Assembly: GCA_963817645.1 (NCBI GenBank)
Contig: CAWFQC010000014.1
Coordinates: 77,228 to 141,227 of the forward strand
Direction: 5' to 3'
From: an uncultured Gammaproteobacteria bacterium
Lineage (GTDB): Bacteria; Pseudomonadota; Gammaproteobacteria; UBA6002
Length of the DNA stretch: 64,000 nt
The translations under genes were made by a program, and so were the position numbers. Below are positions 1,906 to 9,293 of this stretch, in pieces. Position 1 is the first letter of the stretch. Each line of letters opens with the position of its first letter. The notes under the pieces were generated by a model, which saw only the letters and a list, made by a program, of their open reading frames with translations, had not been told where the DNA came from and did no database searches.

Positions 1906-2086
1906 AGGAACATGTTTGAAATAACTCTTGCAACTAGCATCCCATTTGGCAAGCATCTTTAAACGAACTTTCTTCGAAAAAACATTTACATAGAACAACT
2001 ATGCGCGCATTTTTTCGAAAAAAAGTTCGTTTAAATCTGCATGCCAACTGGGCGCTAGTTGTAAGAGTTATTTCAAACATGTTCCT
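1906..2086. repeat. Long imperfect palindrome (arms ~77 bp, 1906-1982 and 2010-2086) in the mrcA<>pilM divergent intergenic region
   Basis: Left arm is aggaacatgtttgaaataactcttgcaactagc...aaacgaactttcttcgaaaaaa. The reverse complement of the right arm is aggaacatgtttgaaataactcttacaactagc...aaacgaactttttttcgaaaaaa. Track ORFs 1807..1998 and 1934..2128 lie inside it. Confidence 0.85.
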
Positions 2087-4366: not shown

Positions 4367-5623
4367 ATGAATAAAAAATATTTCATTCTTTGTTTAATGA
4401 TATTTATCCTTCTAATATCGGTTTCCGTTAAACTCTTGGCTGATAAAGAAAAAATAAGTGGACATAAAAATCAAGAGATTAAAATTATCTCCCTTGATTT
4501 TAAAAAAATTCCAGTGAGAGAACTATTGCAATTTATAGCCGAGGCAATGGGCTGTAATATTATCATGAGTGAAAGCGTTACTGGTAATTTGGCGTTACAT
4601 TTTAAAAATGTGACTTGGCAACAGGCTTTTCATATTATTCTAGAGATGACTGGATTTGTAAGTAAGCAGATAGATAATGTGCTTTTAATAGCAAGCCCAT
4701 TAGAATTTGCTAATCGGCAAAAAAGTGTCACTGAGGCTGCTTTAGTAAAAACATTTAAAATAAAACTGTATCATGCACAAGTTAGCCAGGTAATGGCACA
4801 ATTAAAAAATGAAGACAATATCTTATCACCGATTGCTAAAGTAAGTGCTAATGTAGAAGATAATAGCCTTTGGATTAAAGAGAACGTTGAAAACATTCCT
4901 TTGGTGACAAGTTTCATCCATCAAAGAGATAAAGTTGAAAAACAAATTTTAATTTTAGCCAAGATCATTAATCTAGATGACAAAAAAGTGCATGAATTAG
5001 GAATTAAATTTAGACCTATTTCAAGAGAAAAATCTGATCAAGGATTGACCTTAAGTTTTCCTGAAGGGAATTCGCCTGGTTTAAATTTGGCGATAGCATC
5101 TATTGCGCAGTGGCAATTATTAAATTTAGAGTTAGCTGCTTTAGAGGCATCTGGGTATAGTAAAATAATGGCTGACCCCAAGATAGTTACCCTTAATCAC
5201 CAACCTGCTATTATTGAAGCGGGAGAAGAGATCCCCTATCAAGAGAAGACCGCGAGTGGTGCAACCAATGTTTCCTTTAAAAAAGCTGCCTTGAGTTTGA
5301 AGGTTACCCCTACAGTGCTTCCTGATCGTAGCATAATTTTAGAGTTAGAAATTAAACAAAATAAAATATCTTCGCTTTCAGTAAACGGCACACCGGCTAT
5401 ACAAACACAAGAGTTAAAAACCCAAGTCATTATAGGGAATCGTCAAACTATTATTTTAGGAGGGATATATGAGACGACGAACTGTCAGGTGGTTGAAAAA
5501 ATTCCAGTTCTATCGCATTTGCCTCTGGTTGGCCAGCTATTGAGTCATTGCGATACCCAGCAGTTAAAAAAGCAGTTGTTAATTTTTGTTACTCCGGAGA
5601 TTATAGGGAACGTGCATGGGTAA
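4367..5623 (+). CDS. pilQ: Type IV pilus secretin PilQ (short form, 418 aa)
   Basis: Signal peptide present. The secretin C-domain reads IIEAGEEIPYQE...ILGGIYETTN...VEKIPVLSHLPLVGQLL...LLIFVTPEII. It is shorter than typical PilQ, and no N-terminal AMIN-like region is apparent. Confidence 0.85.
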   Translation: MNKKYFILCLMIFILLISVSVKLLADKEKISGHKNQEIKIISLDFKKIPVRELLQFIAEAMGCNIIMSESVTGNLALHFKNVTWQQAFHIILEMTGFVSKQIDNVLLIASPLEFANRQKSVTEAALVKTFKIKLYHAQVSQVMAQLKNEDNILSPIAKVSANVEDNSLWIKENVENIPLVTSFIHQRDKVEKQILILAKIINLDDKKVHELGIKFRPISREKSDQGLTLSFPEGNSPGLNLAIASIAQWQLLNLELAALEASGYSKIMADPKIVTLNHQPAIIEAGEEIPYQEKTASGATNVSFKKAALSLKVTPTVLPDRSIILELEIKQNKISSLSVNGTPAIQTQELKTQVIIGNRQTIILGGIYETTNCQVVEKIPVLSHLPLVGQLLSHCDTQQLKKQLLIFVTPEIIGNVHG

Positions 5624-5647
5624 TTAACTAGAAATTTAAGCCTCCTG

Positions 5648-6560
5648 ACTAGGGTTTGTCGTCAATTAATCCCGACTTTGCACTGCCATTAAGTTAAGGG
5701 TACCCCCGCGACTTACCCATATCTTATGCACAAGTCTGGAAACCGTTGTCTTCGCCCGTACAGACGTATAAAAAATATTTCAACTAATATAGGGCGAGGA
5801 TTTTCCCCTGAAGACTGATCTGATTCTCCCCCAAAGAAAAAATGAGCATTCTTCATGAGATTGGCGCTGGATTCCTCGCATGAAAGGTTTGAGCATTCTA
5901 CAAGTATCATGCGGCGAGGAACGACGAGCGGAAAGCGCCAGCAGCTTAACTCCCATGGCGAGGAACGATGGGCGGAAAGCGCCAGCAGCTTAACTCCCAT
6001 GGCGAGGAACGACGGGCGGAAAGCGCCAGCAGCTTAACTCCCATGGCGAGGAACGACAGGCGGAAAGCGCCAGCAGCTTAACTCCCATGGCGAGGAACGA
6101 CGGGCGGAAAGCGCCAGCAGCTTAACTCCCATGGCGAGGAACGACGGGCGGAAAGCGCCAGCAGCTTAACTCCCATGGTGAGGAACGACGAGCGGGAAGC
6201 GTCAGCAGCTTAACTCCCATGGCGAGGAACGACGACGAGGGCACTGCCATTAAGTTAAGGGCATTTCCTCCTCCTCGCCGTCGTTCCTCGCCGCGTGATG
6301 CCTGTAGAATGCTCAAACCTTTCATGCGAGGAATCCAGCGCCAATCTTATGAAGAAGGCTGATTTTTTTCTTTGAAGGTGAATCAGATCAGACTTCAGCT
6401 CTGGGTCTTCGTCCTATTGGTTAGAGTATTTTTCATACGTCTGTGCGGACGAGGATGAGGCTTCCAGACTTGTGCATAAGATATGGGTAAGTCGCGGGAG
6501 CGCCCTTAACTTAATGGCAGTGCGACGACGAGGAGGAAATGCCCTTATGACAGAGGTGCG
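5648..6560. mobile_element. Composite palindromic MITE-like element: left arm, 44-bp tandem array, right arm
   Basis: The left arm (about 5700-5912) is the reverse complement of the right arm (about 6285-6500). For example, catgagattggcgctggattcctcgcatgaaaggtttgagcattctacaag pairs with ctgtagaatgctcaaacctttcatgcgaggaatccagcgccaatcttatg. The terminal motif cactgccattaagttaaggg occurs at 5681-5700 and inverted at 6503-6522. No transposase ORF is present. Confidence 0.85.
5913..6234 (+). repeat. Tandem repeat, 44-bp unit, about 7.3 copies
   Basis: The unit ggcgaggaacgacgggcggaaagcgccagcagcttaactcccat starts at 5913, 5957, 6001, 6045, 6089, 6133, 6177 and 6221, with a few substitutions per copy. 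Confidence 0.95.
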
Positions 6561-6614
6561 ACGTCACGAACTCACTAATGAATAATTTAAGCGGGAGTTT
6601 TTGAAGGAGATATT

Positions 6615-6906
6615 ATGGAAGAATGTTTTGTATATATCTTAGCAAGCCGTCGCAATGGAGCCTTATACGTTGGTTCAACAACGAATTTAGTAAAAAGAAT
6701 ATGGGAACATAAAAATAATGTTATTCCGGGATTTACTGCAAAATATAATGTTCATCTGTCTGGTTTATTATGAAGTGCATCAAAATATCATGGAAGCTGC
6801 ACGACGCGAAAGACGATTAAAGAATTGGTGCAGAAAATGGAAGTTAAACATCATTGAACAATGTAATCCGACATGGCGCGATTTATACGAAGAAATCAGC
6901 ACTTAA
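6615..6906 (+). pseudogene. GIY-YIG nuclease family protein (small URI-domain type), disrupted by a +1 frameshift
   Basis: An SD (aggaga, 6605-6610) precedes the ATG at 6615. Frame 1 reads MEECFVYILASRRNGALYVGSTTNLVKRIWEHKNNVIPGFTAKYNVH and stops at 6771-6773. The family-typical continuation LVYYEVHQNIMEAARRERRLKNWCRKWKLNIIEQCNPTWRDLYEEI is in the +1 frame (track ORF 6718..6906). The junction is at about 6755-6765. Confidence 0.85.
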
Positions 6907-6934
6907 CTGGATCTTGTGGACAGGCCATATCTTT

Positions 6935-7045
6935 ATACACAAGTGACCCAGTCCCTTAGGGTCAAACATTCAGAGAATAACTTTGGCTCTTCCGGAATTC
7001 CCATGGTTGACAAGAATTTCCCCCCTTTGAAAATAAAGGGATTAT
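6935..7045 (-). repeat. Partial copy of a second MITE family (cacaagtgaccc...ggctcttccggaattccc...)
   Basis: 6941-7040 matches the reverse complement of 10500-10600 almost end to end: ...gtcaaacattcagagaataactttggctcttccggaattcc. Confidence 0.8.
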
Positions 7046-7480
7046 ATGCTTGTTATTAGAAGTGTGAAGTCTCCATCCTCGCCATAGGAGTTAAGCTGCT
7101 GGGCGCTTTCCACTTGTCGTACCTCGCCATGGGAGTTAAGCTGTTGGGCGCTTTCCACTTGTCGTACCTCGCCATGGGAGTTAAGCTGTTGGGCGCTTTC
7201 CACTTGTCGTTCCTCGCCATGAGAGTTAAGCTGCTGGCTCTTTCCGCTCGTCGTTCCTCGCCGCATGATGCTTGTAGAATGCTCAAACCTTTCATGCGAG
7301 GAATCCAGCGCCAATCCCATGAAGAATGCTGATTTTTCTTTGGAGGTGAATCAGATCAGACCTCAAGCTCTGGATCTTCGTCCTATTAGTTAGAGTATTT
7401 TTAGTATTTTTCATATGTCTGCTCGGGCGAGGATGGTACCCATATGTATAAAGATATGCGGAATATGCGGCCACGGGACG
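7046..7480. mobile_element. Half-copy of the composite MITE (inverted tandem array plus one arm)
   Basis: 7256-7475 (cctcgccgcatgatgcttgtagaatgctcaaacctttcatgcgaggaatccagcgccaatcccatgaag...) is a direct repeat of 6285-6500. The array at 7077-7262 is the reverse complement of the array type at 5913-6234. Confidence 0.85.
7077..7262 (-). repeat. Tandem repeat, 45-bp unit, about 4 copies, inverted relative to the 5913-6234 array
   Basis: The unit cctcgccatgggagttaagctgttgggcgctttccacttgtcgta starts at 7077, 7122, 7167 and 7212, with a partial copy at 7256. Confidence 0.9.
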
Positions 7481-7642
7481 ACGGAGTCGAGGTTAATCTA
7501 AGACAGGCTCTAGCCATCCTTCATTCCGAATAACCTAGACCCTTCGAGTCAAACGCCGGAAAGGTCTTGCTAGGAAGAATGAAGCTGGAATCTTCTAGTG
7601 AAATCCACTAAAATTGAAAATTCTTTTGTAAAAAGTAGAAAA

Positions 7643-8164
7643 ATGTCATTTAAAAAAAATATTTTCTTAGTTGGACCATGGGGGGGTAAGACTTCTGTGG
7701 GCAGGCTTTTGGCCAAGACTTTAAATTTTAAATTTTTTGACTCCGATCAAGTAGTAGAATCACAAACAGGTGCAGATATTCCTTGGATTTTTGATATTGA
7801 AGGTGAGCTAGGTTTCAGGCAAAGAGAATCTAAGATTATTGACTCTCTAACTAAGAAAAATAACATAGTATTAGCAACTGGCGGAGGAGTAGTTCTTGAT
7901 GCTGAAAACCGTAAAAACTTGTCATCTAGGGGAACAGTTTTTTATTTGAAAGTAAGTGTTGACGAACAAGTTAGGCGTACCTGTCGAAGTCGTAATAGGC
8001 CGTTGATCTTAGATAAGGATCCTCATGAGATTTTTGAGAAATTAAAGGATGAGAGAGAATCACTTTATTTACAAGTCGCTGATCACGCAATAGATACTGA
8101 TCACGGTTCAGTGCGAGCTATAGTTGATTCCATTTTAGAGAAAACAAATTTGTCAGATTCCTAG
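7643..8164 (+). CDS. aroK: Shikimate kinase (non-canonical P-loop)
   Basis: The sequence MSFKKNIFLVGPWGGKTSVGRLLAKTLNFKFFDSDQVVE...LATGGGVV carries shikimate kinase motifs (P-loop, DSD, GGG). The ATG at 7643 is preferred over the upstream GTG at 7598. Position is between pilQ and aroB. Confidence 0.85.
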   Translation: MSFKKNIFLVGPWGGKTSVGRLLAKTLNFKFFDSDQVVESQTGADIPWIFDIEGELGFRQRESKIIDSLTKKNNIVLATGGGVVLDAENRKNLSSRGTVFYLKVSVDEQVRRTCRSRNRPLILDKDPHEIFEKLKDERESLYLQVADHAIDTDHGSVRAIVDSILEKTNLSDS

Positions 8165-8187
8165 TGTTCCTTGCATAAGGCTTCTTT

Positions 8188-9293
8188 TTGAGGGATAGTT
8201 ATTCTGTGGATGATAAATTGACAAAAATTATTGTAAATTTGAATGAGAGATCCTATCCAATCTTTATTGGAGAAGACCTCTTAAAACAAAATTTATTAAT
8301 TCCTCATATCATTGGGCAACAAGTTTTCATTGTGACCAATGAGACAGTAGCTCCTTTGTATCTTGCTGTCTTAAAGTCACAATTTAAAGATTACCAATGT
8401 GATGACCTTATTCTGCCTGATGGGGAAGTTTATAAAACCATTGATTCAGTCCAAGCGATATTGACGCACTTATTGAACGAGGGCATCGTCGCAATACCAC
8501 CTTGATTGCCTTAGGGGGAGGGGTGATTGGAGACATGACGGGTTTTGCTGCTGCCTGTTATCAAAGAGGAGCTAATTTTATTCAAGTTCCCACTTCTCTT
8601 CTTGGGCAGGTGGATGCTTCGGTAGGTGGTAAAACAGGGGTAAACCATCCACGTGCTAAAAACTTAATTGGCGCTTTTTACCAACCTAAAGCAGTCCTTA
8701 TTGATACCAGTACTTTGCAAACCTTACCTCAGAGAGAATTCTGCTCAGGGATGTCTGAAATTATTAAGGCCGCTTTAATCTGCGATGAAGAATTTTTCTG
8801 TTGGCTTGAAGAACGTGTCATCAGCCTTCTTGAAAAAGAGGGGAACATGATAACTCACGCTATTAAAGAGGCTTGTCATATTAAAGCAAAAATTGTTATG
8901 CAAGATGAACGAGAGGCAAATATCAGAGCGCTTCTTAATCTTGGGCATACATTTGGGCATGCGCTAGAACAATATTTAAATTATAGCGACTGGCTACATG
9001 GCGAGGCTGTTGCGGTGGGATTGGTGCTTGCAGCAGAATATTCAAAACGGATTGGATGGTTGGATGAAAAAAGCGTGTTACGTATCAAGAACATTTTGAC
9101 AATGGCCAATTTACCTACAAAGTTGCCTTCTTCTATCTCTGTTTCAAAATTGATTGAAAGTATGAGTTCTGATAAGAAAAAAGACACATCAAAATTAAAA
9201 CTAGTATTATTAAAAGGAATTGGTCAGGCTGTTTTGAGTACTCAAGTAGACTTAAAGATCCTTGAAGCAACGATTTCTGAAAATCTTAGGTGA
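8188..9293 (+). CDS. aroB: 3-dehydroquinate synthase, interrupted by a -1 frame change in this assembly
   Basis: The N-terminal part is in the 8188 frame (stop at 8503-8505). The conserved core HRRNTTLIALGGGVIGDMTGFAAACYQRGANFIQVPTSLLGQVDASVGGKTGVNHP...NLGHTFGHALE is in the 8502 frame, which is open from about 8450. Confidence 0.85.

What the first reader, a model, noticed from the sequence alone, without database searches (positions are those of the whole stretch)
5648..7480. Inverted 'arm + tandem-array' modules bracket a GIY-YIG nuclease gene
5700-6234 (arm then 44-bp array) and 7077-7480 (45-bp array then arm) are inverted copies of each other. Between them lies a small GIY-YIG nuclease gene (6615-6906), now frameshifted. 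The layout resembles a composite mobile unit whose cargo is a nuclease. It raises the hypothesis that this GIY-YIG family mobilises or maintains the palindromic MITEs scattered through the region, by analogy to REP elements and their RAYT transposases.
Basis: inference. Interest (0 to 1): 0.6.

Follow-up and report, generated by a model that had tools for sequence, protein, structure and literature searches.

The report
Dead Ssn nuclease gene amid hairpin repeats
The small broken nuclease gene belongs to the recently described Ssn family, whose members cut single-stranded DNA next to a dispersed hairpin repeat, and the "arms" around it are ordinary miniature transposons that insert next to such hairpins, not a transposon that carries the nuclease.

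Summary
5700-6234 and 7077-7480 are inverted arm-plus-array modules around a frameshifted GIY-YIG gene (6615-6906).

The gene is a dead paralogue of Ssn, a single-domain GIY-YIG ssDNA nuclease that binds and cuts beside hairpin repeats called SRM/NTS (Chenal 2025, PMC11893778). The REP/RAYT-like idea is therefore right in spirit, but already published.

The cognate repeat is not the arm. It is CGTCGTCCCGCGRCTTGTYCGCGGGATCCAG, with about 200 copies. It follows the preserved 3' end of every ssn copy, including half of one at 6907-6926.

The arms are MITEs with terminal inverted repeats (CACTGCCATTAAGTTAAGG) and 11-bp target duplications. Each carries a long-loop SRM-like hairpin. 62% of the family's duplications are the SRM's 5' flank.

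Arms lie more than 4.7 kb from the other eight ssn copies, and the arrays occur only here. The composite-transposon reading fails.

The whole 1.9-kb insert (5649-7513) is missing from four congeners. It looks like a decayed TIR-SRM-ssn-SRM-TIR unit swollen by nested insertions.

Possibly new: transposons in this genome target SRMs, half-SRM minisatellites are common, and dead ssn copies have spread.

The parts
4367..5623 (+). pilQ secretin gene, the left host flank
   Evidence: Pfam Secretin, 3.8e-42.
5649..5673 (+). Left terminal module of the insert, CTAGGGTTTGTCGTCAATTAATCCC. It is homologous to the outer part of the 65-bp TIR of an IS5-family element that carries ssn.
   Evidence: Pattern match with 0 mismatches; 0.01 matches expected by chance. 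Compared with C24:542596 and L007:1927-1991.
5681..6555 (-). Old MITE copy ('arm 1'). It has the TIR CACTGCCATTAAGTTAAGG at 5681-5699 and a degraded right TIR near 6540-6555. It contains array 1 and the nested arm 2.
   Evidence: The right end is read from the sequence after removing arm 2.
5867..5926 (-). Long-loop SRM-like hairpin of arm 1: CTGGAT-TCCTCGC-34 nt-GCGAGGA-ACGACG
5913..6234 (+). 44-bp minisatellite, 7.3 copies. Each unit starts with the hairpin's terminal 14 nt, GGCGAGGAACGACG.
   Evidence: The tandem form occurs only at this locus.
6230..6240 (.). Left copy of the 11-bp target-site duplication CGACGACGAGG of arm 2
   Evidence: Read from the sequence. Family-wide 11-bp duplications.
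6242..6522 (+).
   Evidence: 97.6% identical to C24:496496-496744. TIR pair.
6279..6338 (+). Long-loop SRM-like hairpin of arm 2: CGTCGT-TCCTCGC-34 nt-GCGAGGA-ATCCAG
   Evidence: Stem covariation with a congener.
6523..6533 (.). Right copy of the target-site duplication CGACGACGAGG of arm 2
   Evidence: Read from the sequence.
6615..6906 (+). ssn pseudogene (single-domain GIY-YIG, Ssn family) with one +1 frameshift near 6757-6765
   Evidence: 86% nt identity to the intact copy at C40:84181-84471.
6907..6926 (-). First half of the gene's own 3' SRM hairpin, mutated to CTGGATCTTGTGGACAGGCC and broken in the loop
   Evidence: Aligned with the 3' flanks of all other ssn copies.
6926..6946 (+). End of an ISX-like element (CATATCTTTATACACAAGT) inserted in the SRM loop. 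The break point is the same as in ssn copies C1, C24b and C35.
6975..7040 (.). Unrelated dispersed repeat, about 25-33 copies
7077..7262 (-). 45-bp minisatellite, 4.2 copies, the reverse complement of array 1 (87-90% identical)
7249..7437 (+). Old arm copy ('arm 3') without recognisable TIRs. Its hairpin is at 7249-7308.
7470..7513 (-). Right end of the insert: an SRM flank remnant, GCCACGGGACGACGGAG, followed by an inverted terminal module, TCGAGGTTAATCTAAGACAGGCTCTAG
   Evidence: Aligned with the 3' end of the C10 ssn unit.
7643..8164 (+). aroK shikimate kinase gene, the right host flank
   Evidence: Pfam SKI, 1.4e-49.

Best explanation
The 1.9 kb between pilQ and aroK (5649-7513) is a decayed insertion of an Ssn unit: terminal module, SRM hairpin, ssn gene, inverted SRM hairpin, terminal module. 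Nested insertions have since enlarged it.

Ssn is a roughly 95-aa single-domain GIY-YIG nuclease. Its characterised homologues bind a specific hairpin (NTS/SRM) in single-stranded DNA and cut about 3 nt 5' of its CGTC end.

In this genome the hairpin is CGTCGTCCCGCGRCTTGTYCGCGGGATCCAG, with about 200 copies. One ssn copy is intact (C40:84181-84471). About nine are broken, and the window copy is one of them, so it does nothing now.

The 'arms' are copies of a MITE with CACTGCCATTAAGTTAAGG ends and 11-bp target duplications. Each carries a long-loop variant of the hairpin. This MITE family inserts preferentially at the CGTC flank of SRMs, and a second element (ISX) inserts only in SRM loops.

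Because ssn is natively flanked by two inverted SRMs, insertions drawn to them end up as inverted modules around the gene. The array-bearing copy was then probably copied from one side to the other.

Shown here:
- the identity of the gene;
- the SRM census and its association with ssn;
- the TIRs, target duplications and target preference of the MITEs;
- the absence of the insert in congeners.

Inferred:
- that the intact Ssn cuts like its Neisseria and Wolbachia homologues;
- that the long-loop hairpins are substrates;
- the order of events.
For: Gene identity:
- PF01541 covers residues 5-78 of the 96-aa intact paralogue.
- The paralogue is 61% identical to a Nitrosospira homologue whose flanks match the N. 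meningitidis NTS consensus at 27 of 28 positions.

SRM census:
- 206 matches against about 4 in dinucleotide shuffles, with one pattern position relaxed from W to R.
- 226 elements have the form GTCRT-stem-loop-stem-ATCYAG; three control motifs give 0.

Association with ssn:
- The SRM starts 3 nt after the stop codon at the four ssn copies with a full hairpin (C40i, C24a, C10, C24c). Its first half is there at C24b, C1, C35 and the window copy. The fragments C62 and C24:487186 keep no 3' end.
- Across 70 homologue loci the density near the gene is 45-60 times background, and orientation is + upstream, - downstream.
- Only the ssn-bearing genomes G000 and G004 have SRMs among the 21 sampled.

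Arms are MITEs:
- 247 TIR hits form 72 pairs; 38 pairs have perfect 11-bp duplications.
- 26 of 42 duplications contain CGTCG, against 0.35% of random 11-mers. Fifteen are exactly CTACGTCGTCC.
- Arm 2 is flanked by CGACGACGAGG on both sides.

ISX: 37 of 37 ends lie in SRM loops.

The insert:
- It is absent in four congeners.
- Its terminal modules and split 3' SRM align with other ssn units.
- An intact IS5-family element carrying ssn exists in a related genome.

Published biochemistry: PMC11893778.
Against: - The strict published SRM pattern is only weakly enriched here (16 matches against 6.3 in shuffles). This genome's hairpin has G where the pattern demands A or T.
- CDD cd10448 membership and similarity to N. 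meningitidis SsnA could not be tested.
- The upstream half of the reconstruction (SRM(+) split by arm 1) rests on short, decayed matches.
- The 44/45-bp arrays exist only at this locus. Arms 1 and 3 therefore cannot be independent insertions of ordinary copies. A local inverted duplication or gene conversion has to be assumed.
- No autonomous partner with the exact MITE ends was found. Only related IS4-family ends turned up.
Confidence: 0.8

Rival explanations
1. The two inverted arm-plus-array modules are the ends of a composite mobile unit whose cargo is the GIY-YIG nuclease, and this nuclease mobilises or maintains the palindromic MITEs, as RAYT does for REPs.
For: - The inverted symmetry is real. 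Once arm 2 and the F25 repeat are subtracted, the gene sits nearly central, about 90-100 bp from each array.
- The arm ends share the CGTCGT and ATCCAG flanks of the Ssn recognition hairpin.
- The Ssn paper itself notes that NTS-ssnA-NTS looks like an insertion sequence.
Against: - No second copy of the unit exists. The arrays and the spacer 6531-6614 are unique.
- 8 of 10 ssn copies have no arm within 4.7 kb.
- The hairpins face the gene with their CGTC ends, the reverse of the usual orientation. This divergent arrangement occurs once among long-loop pairs, against 8 convergent ones.
- The arms carry TIRs and 11-bp target duplications typical of DDE transposases.
- Congener G003 has the hairpin in many copies with no ssn detected, though it is only 77% complete.
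Confidence: 0.07
2. The divergent window lineage of ssn (86% nt identity to the other copies) was once the dedicated nuclease of the long-loop hairpin family. On this view the arms around it are the remains of its own cognate flanking repeats, not secondary insertions.
For: - It is the only ssn copy of that lineage and the only full-length one flanked by long-loop hairpins.
- Ssn homologues have distinct specificities matched to their own flanking repeats.
- The long-loop stem differs from the canonical one by compensatory changes while keeping both flanks.
Against: - The gene's immediate 3' flank is a canonical short-loop SRM half, shared with all other copies.
- Arm 2 is a recent insertion with a target duplication.
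- The hairpin orientation is reversed.
- Protein identity to the intact copy is 81-89%, which is little divergence for a change of specificity.
Confidence: 0.08
3. The symmetry comes from a local inverted duplication (palindrome formation by template switching at hairpins). It would then have nothing to do with target preference or with the nuclease. The ssn pseudogene would merely lie in a repeat junkyard.
For: - The arrays are unique to the locus yet present on both sides, so the two modules are copies of each other.
- Dense hairpins favour template switching (established knowledge).
Against: - It does not explain why half an SRM abuts the stop codon here and in every other ssn copy whose 3' end is preserved.
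- It does not explain why the insert has matched terminal modules.
- It does not explain why the MITE family and ISX show nucleotide-precise preference for SRMs genome-wide.
- It is compatible with the main explanation as its last step.
Confidence: 0.05

Closest known systems
Ssn nucleases and their SRM/NTS hairpin repeats (Chenal et al., Nat Commun 2025, PMC11893778). SsnA of Neisseria meningitidis (NMB0047) belongs to CDD family cd10448.
   Same: - A single-domain GIY-YIG protein of about 95 aa.
- The gene is flanked by inverted hairpins of the form CGTC(A/G)T-GC-rich stem-short loop-stem-ATCYAG.
- The same hairpin is dispersed in about 200 copies.
- Gene and hairpin co-occur across genomes.
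   Different: - Position 5 of the hairpin is G, so the strict published pattern mostly misses it.
- The gene has multiplied to about 10 loci, of which 9 are dead.
- A long-loop (34-nt) variant is carried on MITEs.
- Half-hairpin minisatellites are present.
- Activity is untested in this organism.
REP/REPIN sequences and their RAYT (IS200/IS605-type Y1) transposases (Nunvar 2010, PMC2817692; Bertels and Rainey 2011, PMC3116915)
   Same: - A single-copy or few-copy nuclease gene flanked by inverted copies of a hairpin that is dispersed through the genome.
- Hairpins often occur as inverted doublets; here there are 25 (+,-) pairs spaced 57-64 nt.
   Different: - The enzyme is a GIY-YIG nuclease, not an HUH/Y1 transposase.
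- No transposition activity has been shown for Ssn.
- Y1 transposase genes occur in this genome only as broken relics elsewhere.
REP sequences as specific targets of insertion sequences (Tobes and Pareja 2006, PMC1525189). IS1397, ISPpu9/10 and the integration of Nf phages into Neisseria dRS3 are cited from memory or via the Ssn paper's references.
   Same: Mobile elements insert at a fixed nucleotide of a dispersed hairpin. ISX does so in the SRM loop (37 of 37 ends). The CACTGCC-ended MITE does so at NNN+CGTCGTCC.
   Different: - The target is the recognition site of a GIY-YIG ssDNA nuclease.
- The elements have DDE-type ends and 9- or 11-bp duplications, unlike IS110-type recombination.
- One boundary coincides with the published Ssn cut position.
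MITEs of Coxiella burnetii (QMITE1/2; Wachter et al. 2018, PMC5896051)
   Same: Small non-autonomous TIR elements that fill the intergenic regions of a Legionellales-type genome rich in pseudogenes.
   Different: I did not read that paper beyond its abstract, and no sequence comparison was made. No link to a nuclease is reported in the abstract.

Membership tests
Ssn nuclease family (GIY-YIG, cd10448) | Single-domain GIY-YIG protein of about 90-100 aa with no extra DNA-binding domain | tested here: met
   The intact paralogue is 96 aa, and PF01541 covers residues 5-78. The window copy encodes the same protein in two frames.
Ssn nuclease family (GIY-YIG, cd10448) | Catalytic residues equivalent to N. 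meningitidis Y6, Y17 and E64 | tested here: inconclusive
   FVY(7)IL, TLY(18)VG and RRE(65)RR are present in the intact copy and in both halves of the window copy. The offset of one residue fits, but no alignment with the N. meningitidis protein was possible.
Ssn nuclease family (GIY-YIG, cd10448) | Best CDD hit is cd10448, or tblastn E < 1e-10 to N. meningitidis SsnA | not testable with these tools
   No CDD library is available, the SsnA sequence is not held, and the paper's supplements are not held. Indirect evidence only: 61% identity to a Nitrosospira homologue flanked by near-consensus NTS.
Ssn nuclease family (GIY-YIG, cd10448) | Gene flanked by SRM hairpins | tested here: met
   The SRM begins 3 nt after the stop in the copies that keep a 3' end. 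Inverted copies lie upstream in C24a, C10 and C40. The window copy keeps only a mutated half (6907-6926) and a terminal remnant (7470-7486).
Ssn nuclease family (GIY-YIG, cd10448) | Site-specific cleavage of single-stranded DNA only | not testable with these tools
   This needs purified protein and oligonucleotide substrates.
SRM (Ssn-related motif) - canonical hairpin of this genome | Match to the published pattern HGTCWYN(0-2)YYVSBRHN(0-5)WNVSBRGN(0-2)RNCYNB, enriched over shuffled genomes | tested here: inconclusive
   The strict pattern gives 16 matches against 6.3 in shuffles. With W relaxed to R it gives 206 against 4.1.
SRM - arm (long-loop) hairpin | Match to the published SRM pattern (loop of 0-5 nt) | tested here: not met
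   The loop is 33-35 nt and position 5 is G.
SRM - arm (long-loop) hairpin | Oriented non-palindromic flanks (CGTC.. 5', ..ATCYAG 3') around a conserved stem | tested here: met
   42 copies have perfect stems of 6 bp or more and both flanks; controls give 0. Seven stem pairs are paired in 24 of 24 sequences, with one T-A to C-G exchange between genomes.
SRM - arm (long-loop) hairpin | Found next to ssn genes | tested here: not met
   Found only at the window copy and at a 10-aa fragment (C24:132214). The other copies are more than 4.7 kb away.
MITE (non-autonomous TIR transposon) - the arms | Terminal inverted repeats, target-site duplication, no coding capacity, many copies | tested here: met
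   - 19-bp TIR: 247 hits forming 72 pairs.
- 38 pairs have perfect 11-bp duplications of differing sequence.
- Arm 2 has both TIRs and an 11-bp direct repeat.
- ORFs inside the arms are short repeat-derived frames, listed mechanically and not searched for homologues.
Composite transposon with nuclease cargo | The whole unit (two end modules plus cargo) recurs at other sites or has its own target duplication | tested here: not met
   The arrays and the spacer 6531-6614 are single-locus. No second copy of the block was found.
REP/RAYT system | A Y1 (HUH) transposase gene flanked by the repeats | tested here: not met
   PF01797 matches only three broken relics on other contigs.

The most novel reading that the evidence does not exclude
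In this genome the Ssn recognition hairpins serve as dedicated landing pads for at least two transposon families. One insertion boundary of the CACTGCC-ended MITE (duplication = NNN + CGTCGTCC) falls exactly where Ssn homologues nick single-stranded DNA, 3 nt 5' of CGTC. Ssn nicking, or Ssn bound to the extruded hairpin, may therefore guide or license transposon integration. The many half-SRM minisatellites, including the 44/45-bp arrays of this locus, would then be scars of repeated cutting and repair. That would give the Ssn/SRM system a role in structuring mobile DNA beyond the reported effect on transformation.
Probability: 0.15. Interest if true: 0.75.

Novelty: new variant of a known kind. 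Interest (0 to 1): 0.42.

Why it matters
The core idea, a small GIY-YIG nuclease paired with a dispersed hairpin, was published in 2025. To that extent the finding confirms known biology in an uncultured Legionellales-like bacterium.

This genome adds material for the question the paper left open: is SRM-ssn-SRM a mobile element, and what spreads the hairpins?
- ssn has multiplied to about ten loci. Dead copies share rearrangement junctions.
- In a related genome ssn rides inside an active IS5-family element whose 65-bp ends contain the hairpin.
- Two transposon families hit the hairpin with single-nucleotide precision.
- Half-hairpins repeatedly grow into minisatellites.

These observations are cheap to test on other Ssn-bearing genomes and at the bench.

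Tried and rejected
- **Rfam:** a scan of 5000-8500 at E <= 1 found nothing.
- **Solved structures:** only a distant UPF0213 protein (1ywl, E 7.7e-4) matched, so no Ssn structure is available.
- **SRMs spread as ends of the IS5-type element:** rejected. Only 6 of 184 short SRMs have that terminal module within 45 nt.
- **A fixed minisatellite breakpoint at the predicted cut site:** not supported. The 19-bp units could start 3-6 nt 5' of CGTC, but the 22-, 44- and 53-bp units start 13-36 nt away.
- **Autonomous partner of the CACTGCC-ended MITE:**
  - Only IS4-family elements with related ends turned up.
  - One is a 2.5-kb IS with a 756-aa transposase, in at least 10 copies.
  - Its flanking repeats look shorter than 11 bp, so no partner is assigned.
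- **Empty-site comparison for dead ssn copies:** the genome of L001 is too divergent and not syntenic.
- **The second GIY-YIG gene (C37:28797-29024):** it is a YhbQ/UPF0213-type protein without SRM flanks, not an Ssn.
- **The paper's supplementary tables:** not held.
- **Stem pairing count:** my first count was misregistered by one column and was redone.
Full report
**1. The observation**

The region lies between pilQ (4367-5623) and aroK (7643-8164).
- Tandem Repeats Finder reports a 44-bp array at 5913-6234 (7.3 copies, 96% matches). It also reports a 45-bp array at 7077-7262 (4.2 copies, 93%), which is the reverse complement of the first.
- The repeat finder gives an inverted pair 5829-5983 / 7192-7346 (155 nt, 92%).
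- The ORF 6615-6906 reads as a GIY-YIG protein in two frames joined by a +1 shift near 6757-6765.

It missed a third arm copy (6242-6522), which pairs with the first arm (pairs I2 and I4).

A coverage profile against the whole 3.55-Mb assembly shows that almost all of 5646-7440 is dispersed repeat of several families. Only 6541-6600 and 7045-7215 are single-copy. In four genomes of the same genus the pilQ-aroK spacer is about 20-350 bp, against 2016 bp here (coordinates). Everything in between is therefore inserted DNA.

**2. Census of the nuclease gene**

- BLAST and a Pfam search of the genome find one intact copy (C40:84181-84471, 96 aa) and about nine broken copies or fragments.
- The non-window copies are 96-98% identical to each other in DNA. 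The window copy is 86% identical to them.
- Dead copies share rearrangement junctions in a mosaic pattern:
  - the same 5' junction in C24a, C10 and C24b;
  - the same internal junction in C24b and C62;
  - the same 3' junction in C24b, C1, C35 and the window copy.

  They were therefore copied after they had been damaged.

**3.

- The terminal 110 bp of the arm occurs about 80 times in the genome.
- Only the window copy and a 10-aa fragment (C24:132214) have an arm within 500 bp. The other eight ssn loci are more than 4.7 kb from any arm.
- The tandem form of the 44-bp unit exists only here.

**4. What is associated**

- Every ssn copy that keeps its 3' end is followed, 3 nt after the stop, by CTGGATCCCGCGGACAAGCCGCGGGACGACGTAG or by its first half.
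- The same arrangement appears in distant bacteria (Desulfosarcina, Nitrosospira, Luteimonas, Coxiellaceae and others). There is one hairpin upstream and an inverted one downstream. The hairpin differs between genomes but matches between the two flanks of each gene.
- A literature search led to Chenal et al. 2025 (PMC11893778):
  - SsnA of N. meningitidis, a 94-aa single-domain GIY-YIG protein (cd10448), binds the hairpin NTS (CGTCATTCCCGCGMAVGCGGGAATCYRG) only as single-stranded DNA.
  - It cuts just upstream of the hairpin. From the oligonucleotide lengths given in the paper, I infer 3 nt 5' of the motif.
  - Homologues from other Neisseria and from Wolbachia cut their own variants.
  - 42% of homologues are flanked on both sides by such motifs (SRM).
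  - The authors themselves draw the analogy with IS elements and with REP/RAYT.

**5. Checks of that system on this material**

- With the published degenerate pattern, 29 and 30 of 70 homologue loci have an SRM within 200 bp upstream and downstream, and 22 have both. With position W relaxed the counts are 32, 35 and 25.
- The density near the gene is 45-60 times that more than 700 bp away. Orientation is strongly biased, + upstream and - downstream.
- In this genome the strict pattern is only weakly enriched (16 against 6.3 in shuffles), because position 5 is G. With W relaxed to R there are 206 matches against about 4.
- Among 21 sampled relatives, ssn was found with strong matches only in this genome and in G004, and only those two have the hairpin. 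In G004 all four copies lie within 900 bp of the gene.

I conclude that the gene is an Ssn paralogue and that CGTCGTCCCGCGRCTTGTYCGCGGGATCCAG is its cognate repeat. CDD membership and enzymatic activity could not be tested.

**6. What the arms are**

- The arm's outer 60 nt reads CGTCGT-TCCTCGC-(34 nt)-GCGAGGA-ATCCAG. It has the same two oriented flanks as the SRM, a different stem with compensatory changes, and a long loop.
- A search for GTCRT-stem-loop-stem-ATCYAG finds 226 elements in three classes: CCCGCGA 107, CCCGCGG 74, and TCCTCGC-type long-loop 42. Three control motif pairs give none.
- Congener G003 has the same long-loop hairpin with the first stem pair changed from T-A to C-G. The seven core stem pairs are intact in 24 of 24 sequences.
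- No ssn was detected in G003, which is 77% complete.
- The arm fails the published SRM definition because of its loop length. Whether Ssn acts on it is open.

**7. The arms are transposons of the ordinary kind**

- The 19-mer CACTGCCATTAAGTTAAGG occurs 247 times and forms 72 inward-facing pairs, mostly 137-160 bp apart.
- 38 pairs are flanked by perfect 11-bp direct repeats of varied sequence, so these are true target-site duplications.
- Arm 2 (6242-6522) has both ends and is flanked by CGACGACGAGG (6230-6240 and 6523-6533; one extra G precedes the left end).
- Removing it restores the normal inner end of arm 1. Arm 1 is thus an older copy spanning 5681 to about 6555, with the array inside it.
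- Of 42 duplications with at most one mismatch, 26 contain CGTCG (0.35% of random 11-mers) and 15 are exactly CTACGTCGTCC. That is 3 nt plus the first 8 nt of an SRM.

The family therefore inserts preferentially at the CGTC flank of SRMs.

**8. A second element, ISX**

- ISX has the end CATAGGTATCTACACAAGTAAGG. It sits inside an SRM loop at 37 of 37 ends, with a 9-bp duplication.
- A 1.95-kb copy carries a DDE_Tnp_1 transposase.
- The window's ssn copy has an ISX-like end at that same loop position (6926-6946), as do copies C1, C24b and C35.

**9. The locus as a whole**

- At 5649-5673 there is a terminal module, CTAGGGTTTGTCGTCAATTAATCCC.
- At 7470-7513 lie an SRM flank remnant and the inverted module. 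These align with the 3' end of the C10 ssn unit.
- The same architecture, without the insertions, is seen in the transposase-less unit at C24:542596-543150.
- In intact form it appears in a related genome. There a 1445-bp IS5-family element with perfect 65-bp ends containing the SRM carries a transposase and ssn, and it occurs in at least six copies.
- This genome keeps only fragments of that transposase. One lies 170 bp upstream of the intact ssn.

The simplest history has four steps:
1. A TIR-SRM-ssn-SRM-TIR unit landed between pilQ and aroK.
2. SRM-seeking elements inserted at or in its two inverted hairpins.
3. An array grew at the CGTC end of one long-loop hairpin. Because the arrays are unique to this locus, the array-bearing module was then copied to the other side by local transposition, inverted duplication or conversion.
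4. Arm 2 arrived last.

The downstream half of this reconstruction is well supported. The upstream half is weak.

**10. Arrays in context**

- Of 119 non-overlapping arrays with period of at least 15 in the genome, most are coding repeats (periods 72-432).
- Among the short-period non-coding arrays, at least 15 (19-25 bp) consist of a half-SRM. Four (44-54 bp) abut the CGTC end of long-loop hairpins.
- The window's arrays are thus one instance of a recurrent phenomenon. Their breakpoints are not uniform, so I offer no firm mechanism.

**11. Verdict**

- The hypothesis is right that this nuclease family is paired with palindromic repeats. It is wrong about which repeat and about the composite transposon. 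It is unsupported on mobilisation.
- The system is known (2025).
- The variants seen here appear new in the searched literature: the long-loop hairpin on MITEs, precise transposon targeting of SRMs, half-SRM minisatellites, and the proliferation and decay of ssn copies. The closest analogue is REPs as IS targets (PMC1525189).

Noticed in passing
G000 C24:569041-570993, plus 36 other ends genome-wide; window 6926-6946 is a diverged example: An IS with ends CATAGGTATCTACACAAGTAAGG and a DDE_Tnp_1 transposase sits inside an SRM hairpin loop at 37 of 37 ends, with a 9-bp duplication (GGACAAGCC). This is absolute target specificity for the Ssn recognition hairpin.
   Followed up: partly
G000 genome-wide; window 6242-6522: A MITE family with ends CACTGCCATTAAGTTAAGG (about 120 elements, 137-160 bp) makes 11-bp target duplications. 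62% of them are NNN+CGTCGTCC, so one boundary lies 3 nt 5' of the SRM. That is the published cut position of Ssn homologues.
   Followed up: partly
G000, e.g. C40:58227-58457 (19 bp x 12.2), C24:542974-543127 (22 bp x 7), C40:75582-75856 (53 bp x 5.2), C24:454915-455254 (54 bp x 6.3): At least 15 short-period minisatellites are built from a half-SRM, and 4 longer-period arrays sit at the CGTC end of long-loop hairpins. Nearly all non-coding minisatellites of this genome are of this kind.
   Followed up: partly
L007:1927-3371 (CAVYYU010000008.1) and five further copies (L006, L008-L010, L014): In a related uncultured gammaproteobacterium, ssn is a passenger gene in a 1445-bp IS5-family element. 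Its perfect 65-bp terminal inverted repeats include the SRM hairpin, and it occurs in at least six near-identical copies.
   Followed up: partly
window 1907-2085; G000 C11:23857-25235: The 179-bp hairpin element between mrcA and pilM shares its ends (GGAACATGTCTGAAATAACTCTTACAACTAG) with 54 sites in the genome and with a 1379-bp ISAzo13-family IS whose transposase is split. It is therefore a MITE of that IS. The same ends enclose the dead ssn unit at C24:542574-543172.
   Followed up: partly
G000 genome-wide, e.g. C1:36806-36874: Canonical SRMs often occur as convergent (+,-) doublets; 25 pairs have start-to-start spacing of 57-64 nt. This is the SRM-ssn-SRM architecture without the gene, reminiscent of REPINs.
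   Followed up: no
L087 (G003:C30:1-700): A congener has tandem 175-bp units. Each is made of two inverted long-loop hairpins with different stems (CCCTCGCC and CCTTGGC) but the same CGTCGT/ATCCAG flanks. No ssn was detected in that 77%-complete genome.
   Followed up: no
window 8188-8505 and 8502-9293: aroB is split into two overlapping ORFs in different frames. The aroK P-loop reads GPWGGKTS, one residue short of the usual GPMGAGKT, at a run of seven G (7680-7686).
   Followed up: no
G000 C10:9664-12191 and at least 9 other sites: A 2.5-kb IS4-family element with a 756-aa transposase is present in at least 10 copies; the three copies compared are 99.8% identical. Its ends (GGCAATGGCATTTATTTA) resemble those of the CACTGCC MITE family.
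   Followed up: partly
G000 C37:28797-29024: A second, intact GIY-YIG gene (106 aa) is of the YhbQ/UPF0213 type. It has no SRM flanks and is not part of the Ssn family.
   Followed up: partly
G000 C10:99036-99407: One dead ssn copy is interrupted by a roughly 100-bp AT-rich palindromic insertion with its own inverted ends. This is yet another small MITE type.
   Followed up: no
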